The notes: generated by a model not told the origin, from the sequence alone. 64,000 nucleotides of DNA from an uncultured Eubacteriales bacterium (GCA_959600635.1 CAUGMN010000002.1:3030-67029), one strand, 5' to 3'; counted from the first letter of the stretch, positions 59,240-64,000 are shown. A program made the numbers and translations.

Positions 59240-60640
59240 TCAGCTGCGGCTGGTTTCGTCGCCTTTCCGGCGCTCGCTTTTTTCCGCTTTGCCTTTGCTT
59301 TCCGCCTTTTCTTTTTTCTCCGTCTTTTCCGGTTTGTCGCCGTCTTCCTCGTCCTCGGGCTCGGCAGGCGGCAGCTTGGAGACGAGCGCCCATTCGACGC
59401 GGTGGTTGAGAATCTGCTCGACCTGAATGCGCAGCGTATTGGTTACCACCTCGGGAGTGTTGCCATCCTCGGGGATTTGCGTGAGCTGGCTGAAAATCAG
59501 ACCGCCGAGCGTCGTATAGCCGGCATCCGGGTCGTCTTCAAAGGAGAGCCCGATGACTTCGCCGAGGTCTTCGAGGTCGCAGTTGCCGGAGACGCGCCAG
59601 AGGTTTTCGCCGAGCGGCGTGATGTCGGAGATCTCGGCCTCGTCGGTTTCGTCATAGATGTTGCCGACGATCTCTTCTAAGAGGTCTTCAAGCGTGACAA
59701 GTCCTGCCGTTCCGCCGTATTCGTCAACGACGATGGAGAGATGGATTTTCTTTTGCTGCATATCGCGGAACAGCGCGTCAGCGTGGACGGTTTCGGGTAC
59801 GAAGTGAACGGGGGACAAAAGCTCGCGGATGGCTTTGGGCGAGCCGTTATAGGCGTTCAGAAGATATTCGCGGGTGAGCAAAATCCCGAGCACGTCGTCG
59901 GTATCTTCGCCGCAGACAGGAAAGCGGGAAAAACCGCTTTCGACGATGGTTTTATAGATCGCTTCGGGCGTATCGTTTTCCCAGATGACGGTCATATCCT
60001 TGCGGTGTACCATCAGGTCGCCGGCGGTGATGTTGTTGAACTCGAAGATGTTGTCGATCATTTCGCGTTCTTCGGATTCGATCGTCCCTTTTTCCTCGCC
60101 GATGTCGATCATCATACGGATCTCGTCCTCGGAGACGGCTTCTTCCTCCTCGTGCGGGTTAATGCCGAACAGGCGGAGCACGCCGTTTGTAGAGACGGAA
60201 AGAAACCAGACAATCGGTTTCAGCAGCTTGGAGAGAAAGGTGATGACGCCGGAAACGGCGCGCGCAAGCTGTTCAGGCTTGCGCATCGCCAGCCGCTTCG
60301 GCACCAGCTCGCCGAGAATCAGCGTAAAATAGGAAAGGATCAGGGTGATCACGATGACCGACAGGGTGTCGAGCGTGGCGCGGCTGACAGCGGTCACGCC
60401 GCAGCCGTCGACAAGCCATGAGACGAGCCGGTCAGAAAAGTTATCGGCCGCGAAAGCGGAGCCCAGAAAACCGGCGAGCGTGATGCCGACCTGAATCGTT
60501 GAGAGAAAGCCGGTCGGTTCGCTGACCATTTTCAGCATTTTTCCGGCTTTTTTGTCGCCGCTTTCGACTTGACGGCGAATTTTTCCTTCGTTCAGGGAGA
60601 TAACGGCGATTTCAGTCGCCGCAAAGAACGCGTTAATCAA
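59240..60640 (-). CDS. CNNM/HlyC-CorC family protein (DUF21 + CBS pair + CorC_HlyC), N-terminus interrupted by an in-frame TAG
   Basis: The DUF21 TM region is followed by a CBS pair, a CorC/HlyC C-terminal domain and a Lys/Glu-rich tail. The listed ORF starts at TTG 60640, but the SD-supported ATG is at 60685, with a TAG at 60656-60658 in the same frame. Confidence 0.8.
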   Translation of the reverse strand: MINAFFAATEIAVISLNEGKIRRQVESGDKKAGKMLKMVSEPTGFLSTIQVGITLAGFLGSAFAADNFSDRLVSWLVDGCGVTAVSRATLDTLSVIVITLILSYFTLILGELVPKRLAMRKPEQLARAVSGVITFLSKLLKPIVWFLSVSTNGVLRLFGINPHEEEEAVSEDEIRMMIDIGEEKGTIESEEREMIDNIFEFNNITAGDLMVHRKDMTVIWENDTPEAIYKTIVESGFSRFPVCGEDTDDVLGILLTREYLLNAYNGSPKAIRELLSPVHFVPETVHADALFRDMQQKKIHLSIVVDEYGGTAGLVTLEDLLEEIVGNIYDETDEAEISDITPLGENLWRVSGNCDLEDLGEVIGLSFEDDPDAGYTTLGGLIFSQLTQIPEDGNTPEVVTNTLRIQVEQILNHRVEWALVSKLPPAEPEDEEDGDKPEKTEKKEKAESKGKAEKSERRKGDETSRS

Positions 60641-60738
60641 AATCAGAATGACCTGCTATATCAGGCCGCGTGCGATAGAGGACATGATGATTCTCCTATG
60701 ATAAAATTCAGAACAATATCAGATGTGGACAGCGTGTA

Positions 60739-60788
60739 CAAAAAAACACAAAAAGGCAAGGCTATGTCATCAAATTACATGACAAGCC
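60739..60788 (-). terminator. Rho-independent terminator (minus strand) downstream of the GNAT gene
   Basis: The minus strand reads ggcttgtcatg-taatttg-atgacatagcc (one bulge), followed by ttgcctttttgtgttttttt. Confidence 0.5.
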
Positions 60789-60972
60789 GTGCCTGCATAA
60801 TATAAAATCTCTTCAATTGCATTCGCAAAACAACGGACAAACGTGCTGCTGTCAACCGGCGCAGTTTCTGCCAGAACCGCCGGATCGTCCGTATGTGGTC
60901 GTCAGGGTCACAGGACGATAAAGGAGGTTTATCCAAAACGATCCCTCTTTCATGAAATGAATTTGACAATTA

Positions 60973-61629
60973 TTATAGCATACAATCAGGTGAAATGCAA
61001 TAGGTTTCCGCTCTTTTTTCGTGAACGCCGGAACACGACGAAAGTCCGGCGGCAGAGAAAGCTTCAAAGCAGGGCATAATTGGGGTATTCACCACAAATT
61101 CCATACACCGATCATCTTCTGAATCTACAAAGGATTCTACTACTTCATTGGCATCTGTACACCCAATCTTTAGATAAAATGCAATGGTCTCTATTGATGA
61201 TATCGCAGAAATAAATATTTTTTCTGCCCCAAGTTTTACTGCATGCTTATGGGCTTCTTTGAAAAGCAGTTTTTCAATTCCTCTCCGTTTCCAATTATCA
61301 TCAACAAAAAGCATCGTCAAATTGGCATACTTTGCCGAATTACCAGATACTATACCATCCATGCAACAAAATCCAATCAACTTCCCACAAAAAAAAGCTC
61401 CAACGGTAAGACCGCCACGTTCTATTTGCTGACACATGTATTTTGTAATCCAAATTCTCTTTTCGGTACTCCATTCACGTAGTATAGAAGCATCCGAAAT
61501 CTCCCATTCCCCGTTCTTCTTCACATATTTTTTCGTTATCTTTTGGAAATGAGAAAAATCATCAAGAAGTCCTGGATTAATGTCTTCAACCTTCAATGGT
61601 TTAATATCAAATTTCCTTAGTTGATCCAT
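60973..61629 (-). CDS. GNAT family N-acetyltransferase
   Basis: The acetyl-CoA binding segment is VDDNWKRRGIEKLLFKEAHKHAVKLGA. The gene is AT-rich. The last ~35 codons run into GC-richer sequence and may be read-through. Confidence 0.7.
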   Translation of the reverse strand: MDQLRKFDIKPLKVEDINPGLLDDFSHFQKITKKYVKKNGEWEISDASILREWSTEKRIWITKYMCQQIERGGLTVGAFFCGKLIGFCCMDGIVSGNSAKYANLTMLFVDDNWKRRGIEKLLFKEAHKHAVKLGAEKIFISAISSIETIAFYLKIGCTDANEVVESFVDSEDDRCMEFVVNTPIMPCFEAFSAAGLSSCSGVHEKRAETYCISPDCML

Positions 61630-61681
61630 CTCTTTTCCCTCTTATCTTCAACTATCTCTTATCAAAAAATACAGTTCTACT

Positions 61682-61997
61682 CTAAATCATGCCAAAGTGT
61701 TCCAATACCTCCTTAATTGCCTCTTCTTTCTCAATCGGACACTGAGGCTGTTTTGCATCCTCGGACTTCGGTTTGCTGTAATTCTCTCGCTCAATGATAC
61801 CGCAATTCTGCAATTCTGCTTCACCTGAGCGATATACAAGCTGCTGACCTTGAGTCCGGTATGTTCCGGCACATACTCCTTGATTTCACCATAGGTTGCT
61901 TTCTTCTCCGCATCGGTGAGATCAAGCTCGTCCAGGTGGATATTTACCTCGATATGTTGCTTTGTATTCAGTGAGACAAAAGAACAACCGTCTCGAC
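61682..61997 (-). pseudogene. Detached, frameshifted 3' fragment of a RumA/RlmD-type 23S rRNA (uracil-C5) methyltransferase gene
   Basis: The minus strand reads ..TQVETVVLLSH, then (one nt missing) LNTKQHIEVNIHLDELDLTDAEKKATYGEIKEYVPEHTGLKVSSLYIAQVKQNC. After removing one copy of an 8-bp duplication it continues GIIERENYSKPKSEDAKQPQCPIEKEEAIKEVLEHFGMI*. This matches my recollection of the C-terminal end and tail of clostridial RumA-like enzymes. Confidence 0.5.
61803..61818. repeat. 8-bp perfect tandem duplication (caattctg x2) causing a frameshift
   Basis: Read directly: cgCAATTCTGCAATTCTGct. Confidence 0.9.
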
Positions 61998-63641
61998 TTG
62001 CGTATCATTGTCCAAACTCATTTCCATATCTTCCTCAATGATCGGAAGCTTGAATTTGATAGATTTGAGCCACTGACCGTTTGGCTGACGTTCCTCGTAA
62101 ATATGGACTTCGGAGATCAGAGATTCCATCAACTGGCGTCTTTCCTGTTCGTCCATTACGGCGTACAGCTTATCAAAGTAAATCAGTACCTTGTAGATAT
62201 TATCGGCAGTCAGCTTTTCCGCTTCGATTGCCGTTTTCTTTGCTCTTGCTTCAATCAGCAGAGTTTCCGTATCCTCGATTTTATCATACATCTTATAAAG
62301 GCGATCATCAAGATCTGCCTTGCGTTTGATGTAGTGCTTGTCATCGGGGTCAAGGGTATCAATTTCCTCAATCAGCTTCGTCTTTATGGAATAACTCTGT
62401 CGGAGTTGCTTTTCGTAATTCGCTATCTCCTGCTCAATGGCGGTGGTATCCACCTTCATGCTGATTTTCTGCTGCATGAGAGAAGCAAACTTTGGATTGC
62501 TGACCAGCTTTGTGATAACCTCCGCAACAGCAGCGTCCAGTAATTCCTCATTGATTTGTTTTTTATAATCGCATTTATGGCCGCGGGTCATGGTACGGTG
62601 CTTACAGCCGTAATAGAAGAAATCCTTGTATTTACTGCCGTCAGCCTTATGCTTAACACTCTTATTGCCATACATTCCTGCTCCGCAGATGGGACATTTG
62701 AGCAAACCCGTCAGCAGATGGACTTTGTTATCCTTGCCGTGGTTGACCTTCTCATACCTCTTTGCCTGCGCCAGCAGTTTCACCTGTGCGTCATTCCAAA
62801 GTTCTTCGGAAACAATCGCTTCATGTTGGCCATCGACCAGCAGATAGTTGTCCTGCTCCACAAGGCGATAGTCGTTTCTTGTGCCATGCACCTTTTCCGT
62901 TCTGCGTCTGCCATAGGCGATTTTACCGCAATAAACGGGGTTTTTCAGTATCCTGCGGATAAGCGCCGCATCAAACAGGGGATTCTTGCCGTTTTGTCTC
63001 TGGATTTTCCCGATGCCGTGATTGGCAAGGTATCTGGCTACGCCATTAGCACCCATGTCGGTATGCACATACTGGTCAAAGATAATACGGATTGCTTCGG
63101 CTTCTTCCTTATTGACAAACAGTTTGCCTTTTTCAAGGGTGTAGCCATAAGGGGCAAAGCCGCCGTTCCATTTGCCCTCACGGGCTTTCTGGATTCTGCC
63201 CTCCATCGTCTGCACCCGGATATTTTCACGCTCAATCTCGGCAACCGCAGACAAAACGGAGATCATCAGTTTACCGGCATCCTTGGAAGAATCAATACCG
63301 TCCTCAACACAGATCAGATTGACGCCGAAATCCTGCATCACCTGTAGTGTGGAGAGTACATCTGCCGCATTTCTGCCGAAGCGGGACAGCTTGAACACCA
63401 GCACATAGGATACACCGTCCTTGCCGGACTTGATATCCTCCATCATACGGTTAAACTCTAATCTTCCCTCGATGGACTTACCGGATTTACCGGCATCCTC
63501 GTATTCTCCGACAATCTGGAAGTCGTTGAACTCGGCATAGGCTTTCATTCTGGATTTCTGAGCATCCAGAGAGTATCCATCGATCTGCATCGTGGTAGAT
63601 ACTCTCGTATAAATATATACTTTTGTTTTTCCTTTTATCAT
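61968..63641 (-). CDS. Large serine recombinase (resolvase catalytic domain + recombinase domain + zinc ribbon + coiled coil)
   Basis: VYIYTRVSTTMQ holds the catalytic Ser region and CPICG...GCKH...C forms a zinc ribbon; 557 aa. The last ~10 codons look like target-gene (rumA) sequence. Confidence 0.9.
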   Translation of the reverse strand: MIKGKTKVYIYTRVSTTMQIDGYSLDAQKSRMKAYAEFNDFQIVGEYEDAGKSGKSIEGRLEFNRMMEDIKSGKDGVSYVLVFKLSRFGRNAADVLSTLQVMQDFGVNLICVEDGIDSSKDAGKLMISVLSAVAEIERENIRVQTMEGRIQKAREGKWNGGFAPYGYTLEKGKLFVNKEEAEAIRIIFDQYVHTDMGANGVARYLANHGIGKIQRQNGKNPLFDAALIRRILKNPVYCGKIAYGRRRTEKVHGTRNDYRLVEQDNYLLVDGQHEAIVSEELWNDAQVKLLAQAKRYEKVNHGKDNKVHLLTGLLKCPICGAGMYGNKSVKHKADGSKYKDFFYYGCKHRTMTRGHKCDYKKQINEELLDAAVAEVITKLVSNPKFASLMQQKISMKVDTTAIEQEIANYEKQLRQSYSIKTKLIEEIDTLDPDDKHYIKRKADLDDRLYKMYDKIEDTETLLIEARAKKTAIEAEKLTADNIYKVLIYFDKLYAVMDEQERRQLMESLISEVHIYEERQPNGQWLKSIKFKLPIIEEDMEMSLDNDTQVETVVLLSH

Positions 63642-64000
63642 GTCGTTATCCTCATTCGTGCCACGGGCTGTGGTACCATTATGTAATCCCTACTCCAAAA
63701 TCACTCTCAGAGTAGGTTTGGACACTCATCGCACGTATATTATATCATGCAATAGCATCCTTTTCAATAGAATCAGCAAAAGGTTTGGAATTGTTTACAG
63801 CTTTCTTTTCGCCTTTGTCCAAACAAATCGGCGGTTCTGGAAGATGATCAATGTCCAGAACCGCCGCATATTTCTCTATTAAATTTTCAAGCAAATCGGC
63901 AAAGCCGCTCCATTCATCCTTTTTGCAAATATTATCTATAATGGTGTACCTCCTGTTTTTTATCGCTGTTGTGTGTGCAAGCCTTGATGATCTCCGGCGG
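61970..64000. mobile_element. Left end of an integrated serine-recombinase element (ICE, transposon or prophage-like), continuing beyond the window
   Basis: The recombinase gene sits at the element terminus and reads outward into a rumA 3' fragment. The region is AT-rich. The right end is not in the window. Confidence 0.55.
63745..63942 (-). CDS. Possible 65-aa ORF with a non-canonical (ATT/ATA) start, or the tail of a longer ORF entering from outside the window
   Basis: AGGAGG lies 7 nt upstream of ATT at 63942. My translation is IIDNICKKDEWSGFADLLENLIEKYAAVLDIDHLPEPPICLDKGEKKAVNNSKPFADSIEKDAIA*. The frame stays open to the window edge, and no ATG, GTG or TTG is available. Confidence 0.3.
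   Translation of the reverse strand: MIDNICKKDEWSGFADLLENLIEKYAAVLDIDHLPEPPICLDKGEKKAVNNSKPFADSIEKDAIA

What the first reader, a model, noticed from the sequence alone, without database searches (positions are those of the whole stretch)
61682..63641. Serine recombinase ORF reads straight into a decayed rumA-type 3' gene fragment: probable attachment junction of an integrated element, nested in foreign AT-rich DNA
The last residues of the recombinase ORF (..DTQVETVVLLSH*) do not look like recombinase. They resemble the conserved C-terminal end of RumA/RlmD uracil-C5 methyltransferases (..T-H-V-E-T/C-V-V-L-L-S-R/K).

The next ~290 nt on the same strand encode, after frame correction, LNTKQHIEVNIHLDELDLTDAEKKATYGEIKEYVPEHTGLKVSSLYIAQVKQNCGIIERENYSKPKSEDAKQPQCPIEKEEAIKEVLEHFGMI*. 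This matches my memory of the C-terminal extension of clostridial RumA-like proteins.

rum/rumA genes are a documented integration target of serine-recombinase ICEs in Firmicutes. The element/target crossover should therefore lie at roughly 61.97-62.00 kb. The element body lies to the right, running out of the window, and the 5' part of the target gene lies beyond the far end of the element.

One twist: the fragment and the downstream GNAT gene are themselves AT-rich, unlike the GC-rich host backbone. The targeted rumA copy therefore seems to belong to an older acquired segment whose left border is near 60.95-61.08 kb. That points to nested or tandem accretion of mobile DNA.
Basis: partly seen in the sequence, partly recalled or inferred. 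Interest (0 to 1): 0.55.

Follow-up and report, generated by a model that had tools for sequence, protein, structure and literature searches.

The report
Mobile element junction in rumA gene
This is the right-hand end of a 15-kb mobilizable element that a serine recombinase inserted into the host's rRNA methyltransferase gene rumA, next to the decayed stub of an older element of the same kind; this type of insertion is already described, and this copy is resolved completely, including strains that lack the insert.

Summary
The 557-aa large serine recombinase ORF (63641..61968, minus strand) ends in ..VETVVLLSH*. It is followed by a roughly 100-codon 'tail' broken by a 1-nt deletion and an 8-bp duplication.

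The junction is a real attachment site (attR). Close recombinase homologs are conserved up to ..VE and then diverge according to context. The far end lies 13 kb beyond the window. There the host's GC-rich rumA body is fused in frame to the element's own intact tail, giving an element of 14,986 bp. Other strains of the same species lack the element and carry rumA5'::this same decayed tail-GNAT-CNNM. Aligning attB, attL and attR gives an 11-bp common core, GTCGAGACGGT (61987-61997).

The tail is not a native rumA 3' end. It is the start-less left-end ORF of rumA-targeting elements. Across 62 genomes the tails are 89% identical while the RumA bodies are 46% identical. The copy here is the stub of an older element, so this is tandem accretion.

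The architecture was already described for vanG/ICE-r elements and streptococcal ICEs/IMEs (Srinivasan 2014; Ambroset 2016). This is a new member of a known kind. Tail dN/dS is about 0.05, so the tail is a selected protein module whose function is unknown.

The parts
61968..63641 (-). Large serine recombinase (integrase) of element A, 557 aa. The gene sits at the element's right end, faces outward, and runs across the attachment site. Its last 7 codons and its stop codon come from the neighbouring DNA.
   Evidence: Pfam Resolvase, Recombinase and Zn_ribbon_recom. Homologs diverge after ..VE.
61987..61997 (-). attR common core GTCGAGACGGT (read on the minus strand). It contains the Glu codon GAG (61992-61994), whose GA is the reported crossover dinucleotide.
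   Evidence: Alignment of attB (element-free strains), attL and attR. Left of the core attB equals attL; right of it attB equals attR. GA target as described in PMC4120198.
61682..61991 (-). tailB: decayed, start-less left-end ORF of an older rumA-targeting element (about 100 codons, TVVLLSH..HFGMI*). Before element A arrived it was fused to the host rumA 5' part.
   Evidence: The same sequence follows rumA directly in element-free strains. It is 83.7% nt / 87% aa identical to element A's own tail.
61971..61976 (-). Site of the 1-nt deletion that shifts the frame and creates the TGA stop (61968-61970). It is older than the insertion of element A.
   Evidence: Comparison with intact tails. Present in both element-bearing and element-free strains.
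61803..61818 (-). 8-bp tandem duplication (CAGAATTG x2), the second frame disruption in tailB. Found only in element-A-bearing strains.
60973..61629 (-). GNAT acetyltransferase, cargo of the older element B. It has lost its stop codon, so the ORF is 218 aa instead of 187 aa.
   Evidence: Pfam. 68%-identical 187-aa homologs lie about 1 kb after the tail in L030, L037 and L023.
60686..61068 (-). Boundary zone between the remnant of element B and the host. Homology to related elements ends at about 61069. The zone holds a promoter-like TTGCAT-17-TGcTATAAT (about 60970-61000) and a terminator-like hairpin (about 60755-60800) upstream of the host CNNM/CorC gene. The exact border is not resolved.
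   Evidence: No Rfam family matched. No similarity to any other locus.
63745..63894 (-). 49-aa ORF of element A between the relaxase and the recombinase.
   Evidence: Called gene at the same place in L001, L003, L004 and L117.
63932..64000 (-). 3' end of the Mob_Pre (MobV) relaxase gene of element A, cut by the window edge. The element continues to about 76,980 on the window scale.
   Evidence: L001 8709-9710 maps here. Far end.
59240..60685 (-). Host CNNM/CBS/CorC transporter gene, the GC-rich chromosomal flank.
   Evidence: Pfam on the called gene. Same neighbour in element-free strains.

Best explanation
The junction at about 61.99 kb is attR of a 14,986-bp integrative mobilizable element, called A here. 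On the minus strand its gene order is: start-less tail, DUF6061, cargo, DnaG-type zinc ribbon, DUF5906/D5-like primase, DUF6471, Mob_Pre relaxase, 49-aa ORF, large serine recombinase.

The recombinase integrated the element into the host rumA (rlmD) gene. The crossover lay within the core GTCGAGACGGT, at the Glu codon of the conserved (H/N)-V-E-T motif a few codons from the end of the gene. Because attP lies inside the recombinase ORF, integration swaps 3' ends. The host rumA 5' part becomes fused in frame to the element's tail (attL, 13 kb beyond the window). The recombinase ORF reads out of the element into whatever followed the Glu codon in the target.

In this species the DNA following that codon was not a native rumA end. 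It was the already decayed tail, plus a GNAT cargo gene, of an older element of the same family (B). B had integrated earlier and then lost its recombinase and most of its body. The locus is therefore a tandem accretion: rumA5'::[A]::[B remnant]-CNNM.

Shown here: the domain content, both junctions, the empty site, the common core, and the order of events. The 1-nt deletion is shared by strains with and without A. The 8-bp duplication occurs only with A.

Inferred, not shown: that the recombinase catalysed the event, that GA is the exact crossover dinucleotide, and that A can still excise.
For: Recombinase domains.

Context-dependent C-termini in 120 close homologs, including fusions to unrelated host ORFs at secondary sites. 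DNA homology among recombinase genes stops at GAGACGGT.

Far end on the same contig: a host rumA body at 57-63% GC, then a drop to about 45% GC exactly at GAG, then an intact tail and DUF6061.

Element-free allele: a 452-aa RumA ending ..ANVETVVLLSH*, on 23 contigs, followed by the tail remainder, GNAT and CNNM. Its flanks are 99.5-99.8% identical to the element-bearing strains.

The tail is element-borne: in 62 genomes with RumA::tail the median pairwise identity is 46% for RumA bodies and 89% for tails; RumA GC ranges 35-73% against 39-49.5% for tails, with r = 0.03. The tail is followed by DUF6061 and the same backbone genes.

Tandem arrays in relatives (L024, L032, L075, L107). A complete 10.8-kb relative ending rec::ETVCLLVK* followed by GC-rich host DNA (L113).

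The same architecture is published for vanG/ICE-r elements (GA target in a GAG codon 11 codons from the rumA stop; recombinase gene without a stop; 101-115-codon start-less left-end ORF; tandem arrays): PMC4120198. Also for streptococcal ICEs/IMEs: PMC4701971, PMC5357655, PMC5704250.
Against: No experiment or read-level evidence here shows a circular form or current mobility.

The right border of the B remnant, and the fate of the native rumA 3' codons, are unresolved (60686-61068).

The recombinase was not compared directly with the streptococcal or enterococcal rumA integrases, so clade membership rests on architecture and target.

The crossover cannot be placed more finely than the 11-bp core from sequence alone.
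Confidence: 0.9

Rival explanations
1. The tail is the genuine, native 3' end (a C-terminal extension) of a rumA gene, either the host's or an acquired rumA copy. In that case the junction is a simple element/target-gene junction with no second element involved.
For: Many database proteins annotated as RumA carry this extension. In element-free strains the tail start does follow rumA directly.
Against: Across 62 species the tail is 77-100% identical while the adjoining RumA bodies are 29-87% identical. Tail GC stays at 39-49.5% regardless of host GC of 35-73%.

The tail is followed by DUF6061 and the element backbone. It also occurs fused to unrelated N-termini: an HTH protein, glycerate kinase, other recombinases.

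Recombinase homologs mostly end in only 8-14 RumA-type residues.

Published work describes the tail as the element's left-end ORF (PMC4120198).
Confidence: 0.03
2. The recombinase::tail joint is element A's own attP-type joint. That is, the tail and GNAT are A's own left end, and a circular or dimeric copy became trapped in the chromosome by a break elsewhere.
For: A relative (L030) combines a tail-APH-GNAT left end with a recombinase 94% identical to this one. Its circular form would therefore look like the window.
Against: Element A has its own intact tail at its far end, fused to rumA. That tail is only 83.7% nt / 87% aa identical to the window's tail.

Strains lacking A still carry this tail and GNAT attached to rumA.
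Confidence: 0.02
3. The junction is a metagenome mis-assembly across a repeated tail sequence.
For: Contigs often break inside these elements.
Against: Eleven independent assemblies give the same junction at 99.8% identity or better. One contig spans rumA, all of element A, tailB, GNAT and CNNM (L001 + L117 = NODE_1424). A 201-kb contig carries the same arrangement from the recombinase through element A to rumA and the host genes beyond (L116).
Confidence: 0.01

Closest known systems
vanG elements and ICE-r of Streptococcus agalactiae / S. anginosus / Enterococcus faecalis / Roseburia intestinalis (Srinivasan et al. 2014, PMC4120198)
   Same: Insertion in rumA at the Glu (GAG) codon near the 3' end, with a GA target. 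The serine recombinase gene lies at the right end without its own stop and fuses to the target's 3' codons. A start-less left-end ORF of about 100 codons fuses in frame to rumA 5'. Tandem arrays of two such elements occur.
   Different: Those are 45-kb ICE-like elements with conjugation genes and vanG. This one is a 15-kb element with only a Mob_Pre relaxase and a primase, in an uncultured GC-rich gut Clostridia host. Its recombinase abuts a decayed neighbour's tail rather than the native 11 rumA codons. Sequence relatedness of the recombinases was not measured here.
Streptococcal ICEs and IMEs with single serine integrases targeting rumA (family Ser_4; e.g. ICE_Spy2096_rumA, IME_SpnAP200_rumA; Ambroset 2016 PMC4701971, Coluzzi 2017 PMC5357655)
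   Same: attR lies inside the integrase gene. The 3' parts of rumA and the integrase gene are exchanged reciprocally, so the excised and integrated integrases have different C-termini. IMEs that pair a serine integrase with a MobV (PF01076) relaxase exist (class IME_6).
   Different: Different host phylum branch and different cargo. Ambroset et al. report a frame change on exchange in streptococci, whereas here both fusions are in frame by design (the frame is broken only by later mutations in tailB).
Accretion of an incoming element next to a decayed resident element (CIME model; Guedon et al. 2017 PMC5704250; Pavlovic 2004, cited there)
   Same: A site-specific element integrates at the att site retained by a decayed resident. 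The result is an IME-CIME tandem.
   Different: [quoted passage not shown] Here the newcomer used the rumA5'::old-tail junction (the resident's attL side), and the resident's own attR was not identified.
Myxophage Mx8 integrase (attP inside the int gene; cited in PMC4701971)
   Same: Integration replaces the C-terminal part of the integrase, giving two forms of the enzyme.
   Different: Mx8 Int is a tyrosine recombinase of a phage. No target-gene fusion tail is involved.

Membership tests
rumA-targeting large-serine-recombinase elements (vanG/ICE-r type; Ser_4) | Large serine recombinase with resolvase catalytic domain, recombinase domain and zinc ribbon | tested here: met
   PF00239 (3.5e-38), PF07508 (2e-19), PF13408 (1.7e-12)
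rumA-targeting large-serine-recombinase elements (vanG/ICE-r type; Ser_4) | Recombinase gene at the element's right end, outward-facing, with the att site inside the ORF so that the C-terminus depends on context | tested here: met
   120 homologs diverge after ..VE. DNA homology ends at GAGACGGT. attB/attR alignment.
rumA-targeting large-serine-recombinase elements (vanG/ICE-r type; Ser_4) | Integration in rumA at the Glu codon of H-V-E-T, a few codons from the stop, with a GA crossover | tested here: met
   Host rumA ..ANVE|tail at attL. Common core GTCGAGACGGT in attB/attL/attR. The dinucleotide itself is not resolvable within the 11-bp core.
rumA-targeting large-serine-recombinase elements (vanG/ICE-r type; Ser_4) | Start-less left-end ORF of about 100 codons fused in frame to rumA 5' | tested here: met
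   545-aa RumA::tailA at the far end of the element. Same arrangement in 62 other genomes.
rumA-targeting large-serine-recombinase elements (vanG/ICE-r type; Ser_4) | Recombinase sequence clusters (>40% identity) with the described rumA-specific integrases | not tested
   No reference sequences of vanG orf44, ICE-r or Ser_4 integrases were available in the tools. The best curated NCBIfam hit is CcrB at 211 bits, far below its cut-off.
rumA-targeting large-serine-recombinase elements (vanG/ICE-r type; Ser_4) | Excision to a circular form carrying attP, and regeneration of the target | not testable with these tools
   Only indirect evidence: a clean presence/absence polymorphism with exact junctions.
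Integrative mobilizable element (IME) | Own integration module plus relaxase/oriT, but no type IV secretion genes or coupling protein | tested here: met
   The full 15-kb gene list contains Mob_Pre (1.9e-48) and a DUF5906/D5-like primase. No product carries a VirB4, T4CP or other conjugation-pore Pfam family. oriT was not searched.
Decayed element in accretion (CIME-like remnant) for tailB+GNAT | Lacks integrase and transfer genes but retains both att sites | tested here: inconclusive
   No recombinase or transfer gene lies between tailB and host CNNM. The left att-derived junction is present. No right att site or native rumA 3' codons could be identified in 60686-61068.

The most novel reading that the evidence does not exclude
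The roughly 100-codon tail may be more than a passive att arm or a harmless replacement for the rumA end. It may be a strongly selected protein module that is handed back and forth by recombination: onto RumA when the element is integrated, and onto the integrase when it is excised.

In that reading it would act as a built-in sensor of integration state, with tailed and tail-less integrase differing in activity, stability or directionality. Its first codons (TVCLLSK) mimic the native rumA end, so they would also regenerate a docking site that drives serial accretion of further elements.

The tail start is often truncated at recombinase::tail junctions (here, in P0206-type homologs, and on pAPRE01). 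That pattern could reflect selection to keep an integrated recombinase tail-less.
Probability: 0.25. Interest if true: 0.6.

Novelty: new member of a known kind. Interest (0 to 1): 0.3.

Why it matters
The finding itself is ordinary for specialists in Firmicutes mobile elements. rumA is a documented hot spot, and the reciprocal 3'-end exchange has been described.

This locus adds a fully resolved natural example in gut Clostridia. It shows the empty site, both junctions, the order of events, and up to three layers of accretion in one species.

The survey gives two further results.

First, there is an annotation caveat. Thousands of 'RumA/RlmD' proteins with a C-terminal extension of about 95 aa are chimeras made by element insertion. 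More than 430 GTDB species representatives carry the tail.

Second, the tail evolves under strong purifying selection (dN/dS about 0.05 with synonymous sites near saturation). It therefore has a protein-level function, and that function is still unknown. This makes an existing suggestion directly testable: that the integrated and excised forms of the integrase differ functionally (Ambroset 2016).

Tried and rejected
Searches that found nothing:
- Pfam and NCBIfam on the tail: no family.
- AlphaFold model of the tail: pLDDT 70, three helices. Foldseek against PDB gave no significant match; the best hints were HTH domains at E > 0.5.
- Rfam on 60300-62100: nothing.
- Folding of the CNNM leader: z = -1.3, not significant.
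- Repeat search around the junction: only chance-level matches.

The route to the far end:
- A 10-kb flank (L001) did not reach it.
- A metagenome pattern scan gave only 859 more bases.
- A viral-contig scan found nothing.
- Homologs of a cargo gene led to unrelated defence islands.
- The route that worked was to get protein ids through the listing of cluster members and then look those up.

Hypotheses considered and rejected:
- The tail as a native RumA extension.
- The junction as the element's own attP joint or a circular permutation.
- Assembly artefact.
- APH/GNAT genes next to a 94%-identical recombinase in L099-L101 as a shared composite: they are unrelated.

One idea could be neither supported nor excluded. 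The GNAT read-through ends ..AETYCISPDCML*, which is 11 codons from a Glu to the stop. It could be the lost native rumA 3' end, but it is AT-rich and only weakly core-like.

Full report
**Observation**

On the minus strand, 63641..61968 is a 557-aa ORF with Resolvase, Recombinase and Zn_ribbon_recom domains. It ends ..SLDNDTQVETVVLLSH*.

The following 290 nt encode, in two frames, LNTKQHIEV..VKQNC and QNCGIIERENY..HFGMI*. Comparison with intact copies shows two lesions. One is a 1-nt deletion in the codon after Ser (TCTCA-CTGAAT against TCCAAACTGAAT, 61971-61976). The other is an 8-bp tandem duplication (61803-61818). Repairing both restores a single 650-aa ORF.

The corrected tail hits more than 5,300 proteins with E down to 1e-48. 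GC falls from about 57% in the backbone to 37-44% from about 60.7 kb onward. Eleven independent assemblies reproduce the junction at 99.8% identity or better.

**Is the recombinase end context-dependent?**

The 120 closest homologs (81-99% identity) are conserved up to ..D(S/T)(Q/H)(V/A)E and then diverge.
- Most are 557-563 aa and end in short RumA-type ends such as TVVLMSRVKE*, TVALLTRTIR* and CVVLMSRVEK*.
- Some are 646-664 aa and carry a tail.
- Some are 704-957 aa and run into unrelated host ORFs (GNAT, NUDIX, AraC, sigma factor, TrkH).

At the DNA level, homology among recombinase genes stops at ..CAAGTCGAGACGGT. The attachment site therefore lies inside the ORF, right at the Glu codon.

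**What is the tail?**

The same nearly invariant tail is fused at (H)VE|TVCLLSK to many different N-termini: different RumA bodies, other recombinases, an HTH protein, a glycerate kinase, and a signal-peptide protein.

A scan of GTDB representative genomes confirmed 430 or more loci. Of the 80 fetched, 62 have a full-length, species-specific RumA fused in frame to the tail. For those 62:
- Median pairwise identity is 46% for the last 150 RumA residues and 89% for the tail.
- RumA-side GC spans 35-73%, while tail GC stays at 39-49.5% (r = 0.03).

The tail is followed after 12-15 bp by DUF6061. Cargo comes next, then a DnaG-type zinc ribbon, DUF5906 primase, DUF6471, Mob_Pre and a serine recombinase (L025 shows the full order). 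L113 is a complete 10.8-kb relative that begins at the Glu codon of the tail and ends rec::ETVCLLVK*, followed by DNA at 60% GC.

The tail is therefore the left end of the element, not a native rumA extension.

Its evolution is strongly constrained. Median dN/dS is 0.049 with dS about 1, over 2,873 pairs. It matches no Pfam or NCBIfam family. It is modelled as a small three-helix unit with no significant structural match.

**The far end of this element**

The contig that holds this locus (NODE_1424, L001 + L117) and a 201-kb contig both continue through about 13 kb of element DNA to a 545-aa ORF. That ORF is a rumA body at 57-63% GC ending ..FPRTANVE, fused in frame to an intact 100-codon tail, followed by DUF6061. 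GC drops to about 45% exactly at the GAG.

Element A measures 14,986 bp from GAG to GAG. Its left junction would lie at about 76,980 on the window scale.

Its genes include a Mob_Pre relaxase and a D5-like primase but no conjugation-pore genes. That is the make-up of an integrative mobilizable element.

A's own tail is only 83.7% nt / 87% aa identical to the tail in the window. The window's tail therefore belongs to a different element.

**The empty site**

The 90%-identity cluster of this RumA contains a 452-aa allele ending ..ANVETVVLLSH*, found on 23 contigs. In those strains the order is DUF3298 - rumA5'::the same decayed tail - GNAT - CNNM, with no element A. The flanks are 99.5-99.8% identical to the element-bearing strains.

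In the attB/attL/attR alignment, attB equals attL to the left and attR to the right of an 11-bp common core, GTCGAGACGGT (window 61987-61997).

The 1-nt deletion is present in both kinds of strain, so it predates A. The 8-bp duplication is found only with A. The sampled element-free strains are therefore not simple excisants of the sampled element-bearing lineage.

In one further sample, a third element with a different serine recombinase sits between rumA and A's tail (L120).

**The older element (B)**

GNAT homologs of 187 aa lie about 1 kb after the tail in L030, L037 and L023. The window's GNAT has lost its stop codon and reads on for 31 codons. Homology to relatives ends at about 61069.

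Between there and the CNNM start (60685) lie a strong promoter-like site and a terminator-like hairpin. This stretch shows no similarity to anything else fetched. B's right border and the native rumA 3' codons remain unidentified.

Decayed neighbours of this kind recur elsewhere: L107, L075, pAPRE01, and full tandems in L024 and L032.

**Mechanism**

A large serine recombinase, whose attP lies within its own ORF, recombines with the conserved GTN-GAG-ACN-GT stretch of rumA. This swaps 3' ends: rumA acquires the element's tail, and the recombinase acquires whatever followed the Glu codon.

Here that was the stub of an earlier element, because the tail's first codons keep the junction looking like a rumA end.

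Catalysis by this protein, GA as the exact crossover, and present-day mobility are all inferred.

**Comparison with what is known**

This is the architecture described for vanG elements and ICE-r: GA target in a GAG codon 11 codons from the rumA stop; a recombinase gene without a stop; a 101-115-codon start-less left-end ORF; tandem arrays; also seen in Roseburia (PMC4120198).

It is also described for streptococcal ICEs and IMEs with rumA-specific serine integrases (PMC4701971, PMC5357655). Accretion next to decayed elements is well documented (PMC5704250).

All architectural membership features tested here are met. Sequence clustering with the described integrases was not tested.

**Verdict**

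This is a new member of a known kind, with modest interest. The most interesting open point is the unknown function of the strongly conserved tail.

Noticed in passing
window 60656-60658 (minus strand, codon 10 of the CNNM gene): The window carries an in-frame TAG (MSSIARGLI*QV). Contig L001 reads MSSIAGGLILQV at the same place. In this strain the CNNM/CorC gene is either N-terminally truncated (TTG restart, 466 aa) or a pseudogene.
   Followed up: partly
L097 10870-11390 (= L118; ERZ772860 contig): In another sample the recombinase gene of element A is interrupted after about 3 codons. The inserted GC-rich sequence, on its reverse strand, looks by eye like an IS110-type transposase C-terminus. 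That copy of the element has lost its integrase.
   Followed up: partly
L120 7504-9468: In a further sample a third element lies upstream of element A's tail. It carries a different, frameshifted serine recombinase plus TnpW, HTH_16 and sigma70_r4 genes, joined as ..QPAIIEE|TVCLLSK. This is a third layer of accretion at the same rumA site.
   Followed up: partly
window 60973-61068 (minus strand): The GNAT read-through ends ..HEKRAETYCISPDCML**, exactly 11 codons from a Glu to the stop. That is the length of a native rumA 3' end, and it sits just upstream of the CNNM promoter-like site. It is AT-rich and matches the att core at only 7 of 12 positions. It may be chance, or a relic of element B's right junction.
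   Followed up: partly
window about 60755-61000 (minus strand): Upstream of the CNNM/CorC gene lies a promoter-like TTGCAT-17-TGcTATAAT, then a leader of about 290 nt with a GC-rich hairpin followed by a T-run. This looks like a regulated leader, but no Rfam family matched and folding was not significant.
   Followed up: partly
Proteins P0206, P0217, P0220, P0237 (..ETVCLLSK*), P0174 (..KLN*), P0207 (..KLNTK*); L107 11674-11834: Several close recombinase homologs also stop within the first codons of a neighbouring tail. In L107 the tail is almost entirely deleted, ahead of FtsX/ABC/two-component cargo. Truncated recombinase::tail junctions are recurrent.
   Followed up: partly
L111 (NC_013164.1, Anaerococcus prevotii plasmid pAPRE01) 5248-7303: A conjugative plasmid carries a 'recombinase family protein' whose ORF runs about 22 codons into a tail homolog (62% identity) and then stops. 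This is a recombinase::tail junction on a plasmid rather than a chromosome.
   Followed up: partly
L102-L106 9347-17007: Homologs (83%) of element A's 344-aa cargo protein sit in defence-like islands of large ICE-like elements: DUF4391, N6_N4 methyltransferase, SduA_C, ResIII/RE_endonuc. Element A's cargo may therefore be defence-related.
   Followed up: no
L075 16411-16701; proteins P0134, P0159, P0213 and others: A second, divergent tail type (..HKKPDGHINVKVEFGEGEGKVPLDN..KYGFKVHTAYIAEVKRDLGLPMYD..HFEVI) also occurs after recombinases. It is 36-38% identical over the alignment with a type-1 tail protein. A third type is fused to a RumA about 90% identical to this host's (P0408). The tail is thus a diverse family, not one sequence.
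   Followed up: partly
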